64,000 nucleotides of DNA from NCBI RefSeq assembly GCF_017348835.2, contig NZ_CP071375.1; one strand, written 5' to 3'. The notes beneath the pieces are model-generated. The model was not told the DNA's origin. It ran no database searches and was given only the letters and a program-made list of their open reading frames with translations. Both the position numbers and the translations under genes were made by a program. The stretch comes from Escherichia coli. GTDB lineage: Bacteria > Pseudomonadota > Gammaproteobacteria > Enterobacterales > Enterobacteriaceae. Shown piece after piece: positions 22,328-49,509 of this stretch; positions within the stretch are counted from its first letter, which is position 1; every line of letters starts with the position of its first letter.

Positions 22328-22404
22328 TCGGAGAATATGGTGCATCCGGGAGGATTCGAACCTCCGACCGCTCGGTTCGTAGCCGAGTACTCTATCCAGC
22401 TGAG
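22328..22404 (-). tRNA. argQ: tRNA-Arg (anticodon ACG)
   Basis: Reverse complement reads GCATCCGTAGCTCAGCTGGATAGAGTACTCGGCTACGAACCGAGCGGTCGGAGGTTCGAATCCTCCCGGATGCACCA. Confidence 0.9.
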
Positions 22405-22477
22405 CTACGGATGCATCGGGAAAATTTATTTTACTGCTGATATTGATATCGCTACTAAAGCCATATCAAGTAAGAGA

Positions 22478-22612
22478 TGGTGCACCAGGGAGGATTACTC
22501 GCCTTGCGGCTCGCCCTTCGGGCCGTTGCTGGCGCAACGTTATCCTCCCTGGTGCCTGCGGTTAATTCCGCTACCTCTTCGATATCTTCATTGCTGAAGA
22601 TTTCGGAGAATA
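22478..22612 (-). repeat. Structured spacer element with a perfect 13-bp inverted repeat and internal hairpins
   Basis: caccagggaggat ... atcctccctggtg enclosing a gcccttcgggc hairpin and gttgc/gcaac; ends tRNA-like (..cctccctggtgcacca on the transcript). Confidence 0.6.
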
Positions 22613-22689
22613 TGGTGCATCCGGGAGGATTCGAACCTCCGACCGCTCGGTTCGTAGCCGAGTACTCTATCCAGCTGAGCTACGGATGC
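22613..22689 (-). tRNA. argZ: tRNA-Arg (ACG)
   Basis: Identical 77-nt copy. Confidence 0.9.
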
Positions 22690-22751
22690 ATCGGGAAATT
22701 AATTTTACTGCTGATATTGATACCGCTACTAAAGCCATATCAAGTAAGAGA

Positions 22752-22828
22752 TGGTGCATCCGGGAGGATTCGAACCTCCGACCGCTCGGTTCGTAGCCGA
22801 GTACTCTATCCAGCTGAGCTACGGATGC
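22752..22828 (-). tRNA. argY: tRNA-Arg (ACG)
   Basis: Identical 77-nt copy. Confidence 0.9.
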
Positions 22829-22892
22829 ATCGGGAAACTTACTTTACTGCATATTTTTTGATACCGCTACTAAAGCCGTATCAAGTAAGAGA

Positions 22893-22969
22893 TGGTGCAT
22901 CCGGGAGGATTCGAACCTCCGACCGCTCGGTTCGTAGCCGAGTACTCTATCCAGCTGAGCTACGGATGC
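22893..22969 (-). tRNA. argV: tRNA-Arg (ACG)
   Basis: Identical 77-nt copy, 3 nt from the tRNA-Ser. Confidence 0.9.
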
Positions 22970-22972
22970 AAA

Positions 22973-23065
22973 TGGCGGTGAGGCGGGGATTCGAACCCCG
23001 GATGCAGCTTTTGACCGCATACTCCCTTAGCAGGGGAGCGCCTTCAGCCTCTCGGCCACCTCACC
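22973..23065 (-). tRNA. serV: tRNA-Ser (GCU), long variable arm
   Basis: Reverse complement reads GGTGAGGTGGCCGAGAGGCTGAAGGCGCTCCCCTGCTAAGGGAGTATGCGGTCAAAAGCTGCATCCGGGGTTCGAATCCCCGCCTCACCGCCA. Confidence 0.9.
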
Positions 23066-43944: not shown

Positions 43945-46835
<2,891 letters not shown>

Positions 46836-46844
46836 GCAACCGTG

Positions 46845-46924
46845 CCGGATGCGGCGTGAACGCCTTATCCGGCCTACATGTCGCACGAACTATGCAGGCC
46901 CGATAAGCACTGCGCATCGGGCAA
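46845..46924. repeat. REP/BIME element downstream of ascB, at the left edge of the accessory insertion
   Basis: gccggatgcggcgtgaacgccttatccggcctac plus a second, inverted, more degenerate unit. Confidence 0.7.
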
Positions 46925-46948
46925 TCTGGAGTTTGGCATCAGTCAAAA

Positions 46949-47368
46949 TCAAAGAAACCATTCCGGCTTAACGCCAAATCGGGCTGAAAGTGCCTTAATG
47001 TGGGATATTGTCAGGGATCGTTGTCCAGACAAAATCTGACTAACCAGGGATTTAGAGCCGATTTCGTTCTTCAAATCCGCATAGGTCAGATTATGTTGAT
47101 CAATCAACGTGCGAAGTAACGCCACGCCAACCGGCATTGCCGCAACGGCTTTGTCGAACTCTGCAAACTTTTCGTTGTTGTTTTCATACTCTGCAATGCG
47201 GCTCGCCAGAAAGTCGATAAGTGGATTGGTGTCATCTTCTTCAATCAAATATTCGACCAGTTCCAGTGCTTCACGATAATCATCTTCTGAGTCACTGCCT
47301 CCCAGAAAGGGGACTGCATTGACCAGTTCTCTTGTTGCTTTAACAGCGCGTGCAGCATTAGCAGTCAT
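46949..47368 (-). CDS. HigA-like antitoxin (XRE-type HTH at the C-terminus)
   Basis: 139-aa ORF resembling E. coli HigA (AVPFLGG...ALELVEYL...EFAEF...LLRTLIDQ...GSKSLVSQILSGQRSLT); overlaps the upstream toxin gene by 4 nt. Confidence 0.8.
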   Translation of the reverse strand: MTANAARAVKATRELVNAVPFLGGSDSEDDYREALELVEYLIEEDDTNPLIDFLASRIAEYENNNEKFAEFDKAVAAMPVGVALLRTLIDQHNLTYADLKNEIGSKSLVSQILSGQRSLTISHIKALSARFGVKPEWFL

Positions 47369-47676
47369 TCTTTGTTCTCTCTGTAGTAACGTGTCAGTTT
47401 GTCATACTCTGCGTGATTCGTTATGTGCTTCACAAAGAACCGCTTATTAACAAAGTTTATGTAGGCAATAACCCTAAGATTGTTCCCGCCGACATCCAGA
47501 ACGTACCATTTGTTGCGATATTTAAAATTGTCGAGGTTGGGAAACGCCGTTCGCATTTCTTCTGGCGTAGAAAAATCCGTTTCCTTAATAACCCGATACA
47601 ATGCCTGAAGAGCCAGAGCGTCGTTAGGATATTTACGCGCAGACTCTTCAAATGGCACTTTAGAAATGATGTGCAT
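47365..47676 (-). CDS. HigB-like mRNA interferase toxin (RelE/ParE superfamily)
   Basis: 103-aa ORF resembling E. coli HigB (MHIIS...KYP...FPNLDNFKY..K.YV.DVGGNNLRV...EYD); toxin-first order and 4-nt overlap with the antitoxin. Confidence 0.8.
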   Translation of the reverse strand: MHIISKVPFEESARKYPNDALALQALYRVIKETDFSTPEEMRTAFPNLDNFKYRNKWYVLDVGGNNLRVIAYINFVNKRFFVKHITNHAEYDKLTRYYRENKE

Positions 47677-47680
47677 TTTT

Positions 47681-47784
47681 AAGTTTTAACTTCCTTATAG
47701 TAAGTAAACAGCCACATCTGCGAGTTCTATCCTCATGTGTTCGGAAACTATAGCTCATCAAATCCAAGTTCACAATATGTAAAC
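47681..47784 (-). promoter_or_regulatory. Putative higBA-like promoter/operator region
   Basis: Minus-strand -35 ttgtga, 16-bp spacer, -10 tatagt; inverted repeats gttcaca-ata-tgtaaac (47768-47784) and aagtt-tt-aactt (47681-47692) overlap the -35 and RBS regions. Confidence 0.35.
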
Positions 47785-47837
47785 ACTTGCGCGTGATATA
47801 ATTACCCCCAAAATCCTCATAACCACTCTGCAAAAAG

Positions 47838-48611
47838 TCAGTTCTGATTCACCCCATCAAGCACATCCCCCTTTATCAAGCAACGCTGCGTCAGCGACAG
47901 ATCTTCCGTTTGTGTGTCGCGCCCGGCGATGGGTTTGAGGACGAGTTTACGGTTGGGGGTATAAGTAAAGCGCGTGAGCGCGGGATAGCTTAACTTGCCA
48001 AACCAGCCGTGAACACGCTGCCATTTGGCGTCTTTTACCTGATACAGACTGGTTATCCAGTAACCAGAATTAAACTGCATATCCAGCAATTGCGTGTGAC
48101 CATTGCCTTGTAAATCCAGCAAATCATCTACGCCAGTTTTGCTTGCAGTGTAGAATCCCCAGGGTTCAAAGACACAGGGACGGCCTTCGTGCGTGAACGT
48201 CATGAGGATTAAATGTGCATAGGGCGCCAGACCATTACCGGCACTTGGCAACCAGATAACCAGATCCTGAATGCCGTTACGATCCAGATCGGCGCGATAG
48301 AGCTGCCCTTTGCCCGCCATATTTGCCAGCAACCCCACTGGCACCGTCCAGGATTTACCCGCGCGGTCTTTAGCGGTTAATTGCCAGTAATCCTCTTCAT
48401 TTGGCATCTTCTCAAGCGTCACGCCAGCAACGCCGATTTTTCTAAAATGCCAAGTTTGCTCGGTATAATAAGGCATGGTCAGGAGAGGTTTCAGCGCCCG
48501 CTTTTGCGCATATTCGCTGCCACTCATTGGCAGATATTCGGTAAAGCTGGTGGCCTGTGCAGACTGCACTAAGCTCAATAAAAAAGCGCACATCCCTGTT
48601 CTGATGTTCAA
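47838..48611 (-). CDS. Exported protein of unknown function with Sec-type signal peptide and two DxDxNG-like repeat motifs
   Basis: 257-aa ORF; TTG start at 48611 or ATG at 48593; signal-like CAFLLSLVQSAQA; motifs ADLDRNGIQDLVIW and DLLDLQGNGHTQLLD; Trp-rich. Confidence 0.6.
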   Translation of the reverse strand: MNIRTGMCAFLLSLVQSAQATSFTEYLPMSGSEYAQKRALKPLLTMPYYTEQTWHFRKIGVAGVTLEKMPNEEDYWQLTAKDRAGKSWTVPVGLLANMAGKGQLYRADLDRNGIQDLVIWLPSAGNGLAPYAHLILMTFTHEGRPCVFEPWGFYTASKTGVDDLLDLQGNGHTQLLDMQFNSGYWITSLYQVKDAKWQRVHGWFGKLSYPALTRFTYTPNRKLVLKPIAGRDTQTEDLSLTQRCLIKGDVLDGVNQN

Positions 48612-48635
48612 TTCCCTGAATTCCCTGATGAAGAA

Positions 48636-49106
48636 TTATTCTTCTTCCACCGCTAACTGCGCAAATCCGCCGTTCCCTTCCCAGCCTTCCAGTCGTTGAT
48701 AAACGGTTTCTACCGCATCTTTAATCGGCTGGGTCATTGGGTAGTAAAAGCCGACGATATCCGGCTGGATGCCGAGAAAAATCACCTCGCCAATATCTTC
48801 TTTCAACTGGTCGATAAGATAGTTCAGCGGCATGTTATGGGTAGTCATCATAAACATTTCGGCGATATCATCCGGATCGATGATGCGGATCTCGCCGGGG
48901 TTTAGCCCCATATCCGTGGCGTCGACAATCAGCAGTCGTGTCGGGCGCAGTTCGCGGATAGCGACAATGTCGTTTTCCGGTGCGCTACCGCCGTCAATCA
49001 CCACCCAGTTGCCTTTCGGCGCGGCGGCGCACTTTTCCGCCAGCAGCGGACCTGCGCCATCATCGCCCATCATGCTATTGCCAACACAGAGTAAAACGTC
49101 AGTCAC
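48636..49106 (-). CDS. hycI: Hydrogenase 3 large-subunit maturation protease HycI
   Basis: 156-aa ORF recognised as HycI. Confidence 0.95.
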   Translation of the reverse strand: MTDVLLCVGNSMMGDDGAGPLLAEKCAAAPKGNWVVIDGGSAPENDIVAIRELRPTRLLIVDATDMGLNPGEIRIIDPDDIAEMFMMTTHNMPLNYLIDQLKEDIGEVIFLGIQPDIVGFYYPMTQPIKDAVETVYQRLEGWEGNGGFAQLAVEEE

Positions 49107-49509
49107 GCAGTCTCCTCACCATCAAATAGATGGCGTTTTCCTGATGAATATCATGCAGCATACTTAACAGCATTGTACTCCATTCCTGCTGCTGCGAAGT
49201 TTGCGCTGCCCGGGCTTTATCGAATGCATTGGCCAGCATCGGCACATGGTTAATGTCGATGACGATCTCACCGTACTTCGGTACGCCTTCCATTTTGCGG
49301 CGGGCTTCGCTGCCCGCCTCCAGAGTGGCAATCCATGCCAGATATTCATCCCACGGGCAGGTGAGCGCCGCTTCCAGGCAATCGATAACCCCAAGGTGGT
49401 GACCAATCGCCAGGCTGTAATAGACCACCTGCTGCGCCTCGGCGGGCGTGGCATCGTTCTCATCAATAAATTTACGGCTCAGTTGACTGAACACCACCTT
49501 TTCACTCAT
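49099..49509 (-). CDS. hycH: Formate hydrogenlyase maturation protein HycH
   Basis: 136-aa ORF. Confidence 0.9.

What the first reader, a model, noticed from the sequence alone, without database searches (positions are those of the whole stretch)
46925..48635. About 1.7-kb three-gene accessory insertion between ascB and hycI
As I recall the K-12 arrangement, ascB and hycI are adjacent convergent genes separated by a short REP-containing spacer. Here about 1.8 kb lies between the ascB stop (46835) and the hycI stop (48636). It holds three minus-strand ORFs: an exported protein of unknown function, a HigB-like toxin and a HigA-like antitoxin. The toxin-antitoxin pair is visibly AT-richer than the flanking core genes. 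A BIME sits at the left junction and a perfect tandem 9-bp repeat at the right junction. No integrase or transposase is present, so the acquisition mechanism is not evident. This is the only clearly non-core block in the window.
Basis: partly seen in the sequence, partly recalled or inferred. Interest (0 to 1): 0.75.

Follow-up and report, generated by a model that had tools for sequence, protein, structure and literature searches.

The report
Old hyc tail gene plus HigBA
The extra 1.8 kb between ascB and hycI is not one insertion: it is an old, uncharacterised exported-protein gene that follows the hydrogenase-3 operon in several enterobacterial genera and that K-12 has deleted, plus a small HigB/HigA toxin-antitoxin cassette that landed just behind it. 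It is ordinary in kind, but it corrects the K-12-centred view of this locus.

Summary
Three minus-strand ORFs lie between ascB (stop 46835) and hycI (stop 48636), and K-12 has only a 158-bp spacer there.

The reading as a single three-gene insertion is only partly right. There are two units with different histories.

1. The 257-aa exported protein ('exp', 47838-48611).
- It lies immediately downstream of hycI in Salmonella, E. albertii, E. whittamii, Phytobacter and Klebsiella spallanzanii.
- It has core-like GC and dN/dS of 0.12-0.26.
- The K-12 spacer is an exp allele with 727-bp and 16-bp internal deletions. The larger one joins two 9-bp repeats (GCACATCCC). This scar is present in 2782 of 5426 complete E. 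coli genomes.

2. The 899-bp AT-rich higBA cassette (46944-47842).
- It is flanked by a 5-bp direct repeat (TCAGT) and sits exactly at the exp stop codon.
- It is absent from most outgroups.
- Relatives at 71-73% nucleotide identity occur on about 550 enterobacterial plasmids.
- HigB (PF09907) and HigA (HTH_3) align full-length to K-12 HigB/HigA (PDB 5IFG).

Across the 5426 genomes, higA is kept in 2508, higB in 1091, exp in 1462, and all three in 747.

The function of exp is unknown. It is a VCBS/FG-GAP-like periplasmic protein. Interest is modest.

The parts
46836..46925 (.). BIME: two REP palindromes (46844-46873, 46898-46922) shared with the K-12 ascB-hycI spacer. This is part of the resident site, not of the insert.
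   Evidence: Inverted repeats I6 and I14; 84/90 identity to K-12; sub-threshold naRNA4/REP hit, 41.9 bits, E 2e-5.
46939..46943 (.). Left copy of the 5-bp direct repeat TCAGT (ACTGA in hyc orientation) flanking the higBA cassette.
   Evidence: The TA-free alleles of E. coli E69 and the E. albertii type strain carry a single ACTGA at this point (AACTGATGGCAAAC).
46944..47842 (-). 899-bp higBA cassette: higA, higB and the 161-bp promoter/operator region, plus one repeat copy. AT-rich. This is the only part that looks horizontally acquired.
   Evidence: Junction alignments; GC 0.37-0.46; absent from Salmonella, E. whittamii, Phytobacter and E. coli E69; 71-73% nt relatives on 547 plasmids.
46949..47368 (-). 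higA antitoxin/repressor, 139 aa, with a C-terminal HTH_3 domain.
   Evidence: Pfam HTH_3 7.9e-9. Full-length match to K-12 HigA 5IFG_B, E 2.5e-35. Present in 2508/5426 genomes. Same protein accession WP_000126294.1 in forms with and without higB.
47365..47676 (-). higB toxin, 103 aa, RelE-superfamily ribosome-dependent mRNA endonuclease family. Toxin-first order with a 4-bp overlap with higA.
   Evidence: Pfam PF09907 1.8e-23. Residues 1-100 align to K-12 HigB 5IFG_A, E 2.6e-22. Intact in 1091/5426 genomes.
47747..47775 (-). Sigma-70-like promoter of higBA (TTGTGA-17-TATAGT).
   Evidence: This is a consensus match only; 5 sites were found against 3.3 expected.
47768..47786 (-). Candidate HigA operator: 19-nt imperfect palindrome GTGTTTACATATTGTGAAC overlapping the -35 hexamer.
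   Evidence: Invariant in the window, in E. albertii and in the otherwise about 50% diverged upstream region of the TA-only allele L003.
47838..47842 (.). Right copy of the 5-bp direct repeat TCAGT. It overlaps the exp stop codon (TCA = TGA on the minus strand).
47838..48611 (-). exp: exported VCBS/FG-GAP-like protein, 257 aa from a TTG start (RefSeq aa from the ATG at 48593). It is the ancestral gene directly after hycI.
   Evidence: Synteny in 5 genera. dN/dS 0.12-0.26. AF2 pLDDT 92.6. AFDB relatives are named 'Periplasmic or exported protein' or 'VCBS repeat-containing'. No Pfam, NCBIfam, PDB-sequence or PADLOC hit.
47861..47869 (.). 9-bp direct repeat GCACATCCC, copy 1 (3' end of exp). End-point of the K-12-type 727-bp deletion.
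48588..48596 (.). 9-bp direct repeat GCACATCCC, copy 2 (codons 6-8 of exp). The other end-point of the K-12-type deletion.
   Evidence: The K-12 junction allele is present in 2782/5426 genomes.
48610..48627 (.). Perfect tandem 9-bp repeat AATTCCCTG x2 in the hycI-exp spacer (CAGGGAATT x2 on the coding strand, carrying AGGGA Shine-Dalgarno-like motifs ahead of the TTG start). It is not an insertion junction.
   Evidence: It is imperfect in other alleles and partly deleted (16 bp) in K-12. Salmonella has AGGGAGAATTTGTG at the homologous place.
48636..49106 (-). hycI, the last gene of the hyc operon in K-12. Here it is followed 24 bp later by exp with no terminator-like site between them.

Best explanation
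The locus is a composite of two independent units lying downstream of, and co-oriented with, the hyc (hydrogenase-3 / formate hydrogenlyase) operon.

(1) exp is an ancestral enterobacterial gene that starts 24-42 bp after the hycI stop.
- It encodes a Sec-type exported, all-beta protein with two DxDxNG calcium-loop-like motifs (VCBS/FG-GAP-like).
- It is probably transcribed by read-through from hyc (inferred).
- Its biochemical role is unknown. My best guess is a periplasmic binding or inhibitor protein (inferred, weak).
- It is decaying in E. coli. About half of all genomes, K-12 and O157:H7 included, carry one deletion allele formed between two 9-bp repeats. Other lineages carry different deletions.

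(2) An 899-bp higBA type II toxin-antitoxin cassette of plasmid-like ancestry was inserted at the exp stop codon / REP boundary, leaving a 5-bp direct repeat.
- By homology, HigB is a ribosome-dependent mRNA endonuclease.
- By homology, HigA binds and neutralises HigB.
- HigA is predicted to repress the operon through its HTH domain, at a 19-bp palindrome overlapping the -35 element.
- The toxin gene has since been deleted in more than half of the carriers, while higA is retained unchanged at the protein level.

What is shown: anatomy, homology, synteny, junctions, population frequencies and selection signatures. What is inferred: direction of the TA event, co-transcription, operator function, toxin activity and exp function.
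For: Synteny of hycI-exp:
- Salmonella: hycI-exp-hydN.
- K. spallanzanii: hycI-symE-exp-parDE-symE-ascB.
- E. albertii: hycI-exp-higBA-hyp-hydN.
- E. whittamii and Escherichia sp.: hycI-exp-hydN. E. coli E69 and Phytobacter: hycI-exp-ascB.

K-12 scar:
- The K-12 spacer maps collinearly onto the exp-only allele with 727-bp and 16-bp gaps.
- The 9-bp repeats lie at 47861 and 48588.
- The scar allele is in 2782/5426 genomes. The other 2643 carry some of the block.

Selection and composition:
- exp dN/dS 0.12-0.26 with dS comparable to hycI; exp GC 0.508 against TA 0.42-0.46.

TA identity and origin:
- Pfam and PDB matches.
- TA junctions with a single ACTGA in TA-free alleles and a duplicated ACTGA in TA+ alleles.
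- Operator footprint overlapping the predicted -35.
- Plasmid relatives.

Per-gene census.

exp structure and family:
- High-confidence AF2 model.
- AFDB relatives named VCBS or FG-GAP.
- Weak FG-GAP_3 hits in 27/70 family members.
- Invariant DLDxNG and DLxxNG motifs.
Against: - The direction of the TA event is not proven. A 5-bp direct repeat equally allows precise deletion, and both TA+ and TA-free forms exist within E. coli and within E. albertii.
- An Escherichia cryptic-clade genome (L014) has an unexplained 25-bp insert between two ACTGA copies. It could be a cassette remnant.
- The TA-only allele L003 has a different, about 50% diverged higB upstream region that runs straight to hycI. 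More than one acquisition or a replacement event is therefore possible.
- There is no expression evidence for exp or for hyc read-through.
- Distant exp homologues are not next to hydrogenase genes, so the hyc linkage may be positional only.
Confidence: 0.8

Rival explanations
1. One reading: a single horizontally acquired block of about 1.7 kb carrying three genes was inserted into a K-12-like ascB-REP-hycI site by an unknown mechanism.
For: The block is absent from K-12. All three genes together occur in only 747/5426 genomes. No mobility genes are present.
Against: K-12 keeps both ends of exp as a scar. exp is syntenic after hycI in five genera. exp has core-like GC. The three genes occur independently in all combinations. 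The 5-bp repeats bound only the TA part.
Confidence: 0.04
2. The whole arrangement hycI-exp-higBA is ancestral to Escherichia. All TA-free states are secondary precise deletions between the 5-bp ACTGA repeats, so there was no insertion within the genus.
For: The cassette is at the identical position, with identical junctions, in E. coli and E. albertii. A possible remnant exists in Escherichia sp. L014. Deletions are demonstrably frequent at this locus.
Against: TA-free alleles with a clean single ACTGA occur in E. coli E69 and the E. albertii type strain. E. whittamii is also TA-free, with ACTAA at the homologous point. Salmonella and Phytobacter have no cassette. The cassette is compositionally foreign. 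It has plasmid relatives. higBA is 97.4% identical between E. coli and E. albertii, while the adjacent exp is 84.7%, which suggests later spread by recombination.
Confidence: 0.12
3. The three genes form one functional unit, for example a three-component defence or TA system like PD-lambda-2, with exp as an accessory factor.
For: HigB and HigA hit the PD-Lambda-2_A and PD-Lambda-2_B profiles. The three genes are co-oriented and close together.
Against: HigA is 139 aa and matches only positions 9-115 of the 402-position PD-Lambda-2_B profile, with no peptidase domain. No P4-antitoxin-like third gene is present. exp has no PADLOC hit. exp occurs without the TA in many lineages, and the TA occurs without exp.
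Confidence: 0.03

Closest known systems
E. coli K-12 HigB-HigA (YgjN-YgjM; PDB 5IFG), a type II toxin-antitoxin at the fadH-rlmG locus
   Same: Same Pfam families (PF09907 toxin; HTH_3 antitoxin). The same lengths (103/139 aa here, 104/138 aa in K-12). Toxin-first order with overlapping genes. Full-length alignments, E 2.6e-22 and 2.5e-35.
   Different: This is a paralogue, roughly 45-50% identical by eye in the alignments. It sits at a different chromosomal site and has its own operator palindrome. The published CFT073 higBA knockout targeted the K-12-type locus, not this one: the primers encode CYIREVMTHKEYD. I found no experimental work on this copy.
Plasmid-borne higBA modules of Klebsiella, Enterobacter, Cronobacter, Leclercia and Salmonella plasmids
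   Same: 71-73% nucleotide identity over both coding genes, in the same order. This is consistent with an addiction-module origin.
   Different: The copy here is chromosomal, and only the coding part is shared (query 5-736). The promoter region and flanks are not shared.
PD-lambda-2 anti-phage system (Vassallo et al. 2022, PMC9519451)
   Same: The first component is HigB-like, and the second begins with a HigA-like HTH. Profile hits 1.5e-15 and 2.4e-14.
   Different: [quoted passage not shown] Both are absent here.
VCBS / FG-GAP repeat proteins, and the periplasmic inhibitor folds PliI (3OD9), X-Tfi XAC2610 (4QTQ) and CarG (4O7J)

Membership tests
Type II TA, HigB(PF09907)/HigA | Toxin with a HigB_toxin (RelE-like) domain | tested here: met
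   PF09907 E 1.8e-23, covering residues 22-93 of 103. Residues 1-100 align with K-12 HigB 5IFG_A, including the C-terminal H-x-E-Y-D stretch.
Type II TA, HigB(PF09907)/HigA | Adjacent HTH (Xre-type) antitoxin homologous to HigA, placed downstream of the toxin (reverse TA order), with overlapping genes | tested here: met
   HTH_3 E 7.9e-9. 5IFG_B E 2.5e-35 over residues 9-138. higB 47365-47676 and higA 46949-47368 overlap by 4 bp.
Type II TA, HigB(PF09907)/HigA | Autoregulation through a palindromic operator in the promoter | tested here: inconclusive
   The 19-nt palindrome is invariant across diverged alleles and overlaps the predicted -35. There is no binding data.
Type II TA, HigB(PF09907)/HigA | Toxin arrests growth and the cognate antitoxin neutralises it | not testable with these tools
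   Needs expression assays.
PD-lambda-2 defence system | HigA-like HTH fused to a C-terminal peptidase (about 400 aa) | tested here: not met
   HigA is 139 aa and matches only profile positions 9-115 of 402. System description in PMC9519451.
PD-lambda-2 defence system | Third component related to a P4 phage antitoxin | tested here: not met
   The only third ORF is exp, which has no PADLOC hit.
Horizontally inserted island or cassette | Absent from related genomes at a clean empty site, with target-site-like direct repeats | tested here: met
   This holds for the 899-bp higBA cassette only. There is a single ACTGA in the E69 and E. albertii type-strain alleles and a duplicated ACTGA in TA+ alleles. 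It is NOT met for exp, which is present in the outgroups.
Horizontally inserted island or cassette | Deviant base composition | tested here: met
   higB 0.417, higA 0.462 and upstream region 0.366, against flanks of 0.52-0.535. exp at 0.508 is not deviant.
Horizontally inserted island or cassette | Integrase or transposase, or terminal inverted repeats | tested here: not met
   No such ORF or domain. The cassette ends CTTTTTGCAG... and ...GATTTTG are not inverted repeats.
FG-GAP / VCBS repeat proteins | Significant match to the FG-GAP or VCBS repeat profiles | tested here: inconclusive
   The window protein has no Pfam match even at E<=10. In the family, 4/70 members hit FG-GAP_3 at E<=1e-3 and 27/70 at E<=0.1. 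AFDB homologues carry VCBS or FG-GAP names.
FG-GAP / VCBS repeat proteins | DxDxDG-type calcium-binding loops | tested here: met
   ADLDRNGIQDL and DLLDLQGNGHTQLL are present. D108, D110, D116 and D166 are invariant or nearly so across the family. Metal binding itself was not tested.
PliI / X-Tfi-type periplasmic peptidoglycan-hydrolase inhibitors | Shared fold with significant structural score | tested here: inconclusive
hyc operon member (co-transcribed tail gene) | Conserved position directly after hycI, same strand, short spacer, no terminator | tested here: met
   Spacer of 24-42 bp in Escherichia and Salmonella. No terminator-like site between hycI and exp. K. spallanzanii has symE inserted in between.
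hyc operon member (co-transcribed tail gene) | Co-transcription and FhlA/formate dependence, or a hydrogenase-related phenotype | not testable with these tools
   No expression data. Distant homologues are not next to hydrogenase genes.

The most novel reading that the evidence does not exclude
exp is a functional, hyc-co-transcribed 'tenth gene' of the formate hydrogenlyase operon: a periplasmic VCBS-like calcium-binding protein made during fermentation. It was overlooked because K-12 and O157:H7 deleted it. A second possibility is that the invariant orphan HigA kept by about 1400 genomes is selected as an anti-addiction or immunity factor against plasmid-borne HigB toxins.
Probability: 0.15. 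Interest if true: 0.55.

Novelty: new member of a known kind. Interest (0 to 1): 0.3.

Why it matters
Practical value:
- The finding corrects a K-12-centred assumption. The 'short REP spacer' between ascB and hycI is a deletion scar.
- The hyc operon of many E. coli strains (Nissle 1917, 55989, pig and bovine isolates) and of other Enterobacteriaceae is followed by a conserved, purifying-selected exported protein that has never been studied.
- It also gives a clean natural series for studying toxin-antitoxin decay: intact TA, toxin-deleted orphan antitoxin with an invariant protein sequence, TA-free, and scar.
- It shows the same intergenic slot collecting different TA types in another genus (parDE and symE in K. 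spallanzanii).

None of this is surprising in kind. Chromosomal TA cassettes in variable intergenic regions and lineage-specific gene loss are routine in E. coli.

Tried and rejected
- Literature: no paper holds both hycI and higB. None holds STM2844. None holds the RefSeq protein accessions. The ascB+hycI and hycI+toxin-antitoxin searches gave nothing relevant.
- I suspected that the CFT073 delta-higBA mutant of Norton & Mulvey (PMC3464220) was this locus. Its knockout primers encode the K-12-type HigB C-terminus, so it is the fadH-rlmG locus. Rejected.
- NCBIfam: no family for any of the three proteins.
- exp has no Pfam hit, no PDB sequence hit at E<=10, no PADLOC hit and no significant Foldseek PDB hit.
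- Genomic context of distant exp homologues (P0047, P0051, P0053) shows no hydrogenase linkage, so guilt-by-association beyond the Enterobacteriaceae fails.
- I tried to identify the 25-bp insert in Escherichia sp. L014 as a cassette remnant. Only the first 5 bases and the flanking ACTGA match. Inconclusive.
- PD-lambda-2 membership was considered and rejected.
- Rfam gave only a sub-threshold REP-derived naRNA4 hit on the BIME.
- Phage collection: a single 72% relative in a Cronobacter phage, so there is no evidence of phage origin.
Full report
**1. Observation**

- The window has ascB ending at 46835 and hycI ending at 48636.
- Three minus-strand ORFs lie between them: 46949-47368 (139 aa), 47365-47676 (103 aa) and 47838-48611 (257 aa from TTG).
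- MG1655 has a 158-bp spacer at this place.
- A blastn of the whole window against the K-12 region shows collinearity at about 98.3% identity. The exceptions are 46943-48614 and a roughly 134-bp spacer indel in the tRNA-Arg array.
- The TA genes are AT-rich: GC 0.417 and 0.462, with 0.366 upstream, against 0.52-0.535 for the flanks.
- The BIME (two REP palindromes) and the perfect 9-bp tandem repeat at 48610-48627 are real.
- The window is 100% identical over this stretch to E. coli PE164, a pig isolate.

**2. What the genes are**

- The 103-aa protein matches Pfam HigB_toxin PF09907 (E 1.8e-23). It aligns over residues 1-100 with K-12 HigB, PDB 5IFG_A (E 2.6e-22).
- The 139-aa protein has a C-terminal HTH_3 domain. 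It aligns over residues 9-138 with K-12 HigA, 5IFG_B (E 2.5e-35).
- The gene order is toxin first, with a 4-bp overlap.
- A sigma-70-like promoter (TTGTGA-17-TATAGT) lies upstream of higB. Its -35 hexamer sits inside a 19-nt imperfect palindrome, GTGTTTACATATTGTGAAC.
- That palindrome is invariant in the window, in E. albertii, and in the otherwise strongly diverged upstream region of a TA-only E. coli allele. This footprint suggests a HigA operator.
- The pair is a paralogue of the K-12 HigBA at a different site. The only E. coli higBA knockout I could trace (CFT073, PMC3464220) targeted the K-12-type locus, judged from its primers.

The third protein ('exp') has no match in several libraries:
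- no Pfam, NCBIfam or PADLOC match;
- no PDB sequence match.

What can be said about exp:
- Its N-terminus has the shape of a Sec signal peptide: MNIRTGMCAFLLSLVQSAQA|TSF, with a basic n-region, a hydrophobic core and an AxA site. It has no lipobox.
- The alignment with the Salmonella and Klebsiella homologues favours the TTG start over RefSeq's ATG.
- An exhaustive HMMER search found 224 family representatives. Most are 330-360 aa, with an extra C-terminal domain.
- The family keeps two DxDxNG-type motifs, ADLDRNGxQDL and DLLDLxxNG.
- 27 of 70 members give weak FG-GAP_3 hits.
- AlphaFold2 with a 70-sequence alignment gives a confident all-beta model (pLDDT 92.6, pTM 0.88).
- AFDB50 neighbours are named 'Periplasmic or exported protein' (E. 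coli 55989 B7LED0, Salmonella) or 'VCBS repeat-containing protein'.

The function of exp is therefore unknown. A periplasmic calcium-dependent binding or inhibitor protein is the best guess, held with low confidence.

**3. History of exp: ancestral, not inserted**

exp lies directly after hycI, on the same strand, in several genera:
- Salmonella enterica: hycI-exp-hydN.
- E. whittamii and an Escherichia cryptic-clade genome: hycI-exp-hydN.
- E. albertii: hycI-exp-higBA-hyp-hydN, with a frameshifted exp in the type strain.
- E. coli E69 and Phytobacter diazotrophicus: hycI-exp-ascB.
- Klebsiella spallanzanii: hycI-symE-exp-parDE-symE-ascB.

Other evidence that exp is native:
- Protein identity falls with phylogenetic distance: 93% within Escherichia, 83% to E. 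albertii, 70% to Salmonella, 62% to Klebsiella and Phytobacter.
- dN/dS is 0.12-0.26, with dS similar to that of hycI.
- GC is core-like.

The K-12 spacer is a deletion scar:
- It is collinear with the exp-only allele L004, apart from two gaps.
- Positions 1-126 cover the BIME plus the last roughly 24 nt of exp.
- Positions 127-142 are exp codons 6 onward.
- Positions 143-158 are the hycI-exp spacer, minus 16 bp.
- The large gap (727 bp) joins two 9-bp direct repeats, GCACATCCC, found in the window at 47861-47869 and 48588-48596.
- The scar allele covers at least 80% of a junction probe in 2782 of 5426 complete genomes, including O157:H7.
- The remaining 2643 genomes carry some part of the block.

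Other lineages have different deletions:
- L006 keeps only the first roughly 70 nt of exp.
- The ST131-type L005 lost higB and its promoter region, together with all of exp except its 5' ~180 nt, in one event.
- L003 has no exp at all.

**4. History of higBA: a cassette**

- In hyc orientation, TA-free alleles read ...AATCAGA-ACTGA-TGGCAAAC(REP).
- TA+ alleles read ...AATCAGA-ACTGA-CTTTTTGCAG...[higB][higA]...GATTTTG-ACTGA-TGCCAAAC.
- The cassette is 899 bp. It is bounded by the 5-bp repeat at window 46939-46943 and 47838-47842. It sits exactly at the exp stop codon.
- It has no terminal inverted repeats and no mobility gene.
- It is AT-rich and is absent from Salmonella, Phytobacter, E. whittamii and E. 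coli E69.
- Relatives at 71-73% nucleotide identity, covering only the two coding genes, occur on 547 plasmid records, mostly Klebsiella.
- Between this window and E. albertii the cassette is 97.4% identical, while the adjacent exp is 84.7% identical. This fits later spread by homologous recombination through the conserved flanks.
- I therefore read it as an insertion of plasmid-like origin, made by illegitimate or microhomology-mediated recombination. A 5-bp repeat also allows precise loss, so some TA-free states may be secondary.

**5. Population picture in 5426 complete genomes**

| Feature | Genomes | Note |
|---|---|---|
| higA | 2508 | always full-length, 95-100% nt identity in all but 5 genomes (lowest listed 90.7%) |
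| higB intact | 1091 | a further 581 keep only a 33-bp stub |
| exp, at least 80% of length | 1462 | 85-100% nt identity |
| all three genes | 747 | |
| K-12-type scar | 2782 | includes O157:H7 |

- All matches are chromosomal and single-copy.
- The HigA protein is the same RefSeq sequence (WP_000126294.1) in the full form, the TA-only form, the higA+exp form and the ST131 form. This holds despite synonymous divergence of up to 0.17.
- The orphan antitoxin is therefore under purifying selection in the roughly 1400 genomes that lost the toxin.

**6. Mechanism**

- Shown: anatomy, homology, junctions, frequencies and selection signatures.
- Inferred from family knowledge: HigB cleaves ribosome-bound mRNA. 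HigA sequesters HigB and represses the promoter at the palindrome. If HigA production stops while HigB persists, HigB is freed.
- Inferred from position: exp and possibly higBA receive read-through from the FhlA-dependent hyc promoter. The spacer is only 24 bp, and there is no terminator-like site between hycI and exp or between exp and higB.
- The 9-bp repeat carries AGGGA motifs. The first copy lies about 10 nt before the TTG start, and Salmonella has AGGGAGAATTTGTG at the homologous place. The repeat is more likely translation-initiation sequence than a junction.

**7. Comparison and novelty**

- The TA is a new, unstudied paralogue of a well-known family.
- It is not a PD-lambda-2 system, since it has no peptidase domain and no third gene.
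- exp belongs to an unnamed VCBS-like family.
- The locus architecture is ordinary for E. coli.
- What is new here: K-12 is the derived state, exp is a conserved hyc-linked gene, and the orphan HigA is conserved.

Verdict: observation confirmed; interpretation partly supported; interest about 0.3.

Noticed in passing
window 46949-47368; L002 1505-1924; L005 1501-1920: higA is retained without an intact higB in about 1400 of 5426 E. coli genomes. It encodes the identical protein (WP_000126294.1) despite dS of up to 0.17. This is an orphan antitoxin under purifying selection. It may act as an anti-addiction factor or a regulator.
   Followed up: partly
L008 4422-6814 (Klebsiella spallanzanii): The homologous slot around exp in K. 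spallanzanii holds two symE-like toxin genes and a parDE pair. Different toxin-antitoxin types have accumulated at the same place in another genus.
   Followed up: partly
L005 775-1409 (ST131-type E. coli); L009 6737-7165 (E. albertii): In ST131-type E. coli and in E. albertii (L009/L010) the asc operon is absent between hydN and higA. A 142-145-aa hypothetical gene is there instead. The ST131-type locus still keeps a 17-codon ascB remnant.
   Followed up: partly
window 47677-47700 (minus strand, higB 5' UTR): This allele and E. albertii have an 8-bp longer spacer between the conserved AAGGAAG Shine-Dalgarno and the higB ATG than the TA-only allele L003 (13 nt against 5 nt). The longer spacer might lower toxin translation.
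   Followed up: no
window 48636-49509 (hycI, hycH): Within E. coli, synonymous divergence of hycI (dS 0.18-0.31 against this window) is two- to three-fold that of the adjacent hycH (0.06-0.15). This suggests old polymorphism or recombination tracts centred on the variable locus.
   Followed up: no
L014 4760-4810 (Escherichia sp. MOD1-EC7003): A 25-bp insert (CTTTTCACGACGAAGAATCAGTCAG) lies between two ACTGA copies at the exact cassette site. It is either a remnant of a lost cassette or an unrelated small insertion. Unexplained.
   Followed up: partly
P0042, P0044 (E. coli); AFDB A0A633HV03 (Salmonella): Some genomes have in-frame fusion ORFs made by the deletions. One type joins the exp signal peptide and N-terminus to HigA (203-209 aa). 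Another appears to be a HycI-exp fusion (343 aa, named hydrogenase 3 maturation protease, matching exp over 188 columns).
   Followed up: no
window 22338-23065: The argQZYV-serV tRNA array has four tRNA-Arg(ACG) genes as in K-12. The spacing is 275/139/141 bp instead of 275/139/275 bp, a roughly 134-bp spacer indel.
   Followed up: partly
window 48593-48611: RefSeq starts exp at the ATG (251 aa). The alignment with the Salmonella and Klebsiella homologues, and the need for a basic n-region, favour the upstream TTG (257 aa).
   Followed up: partly
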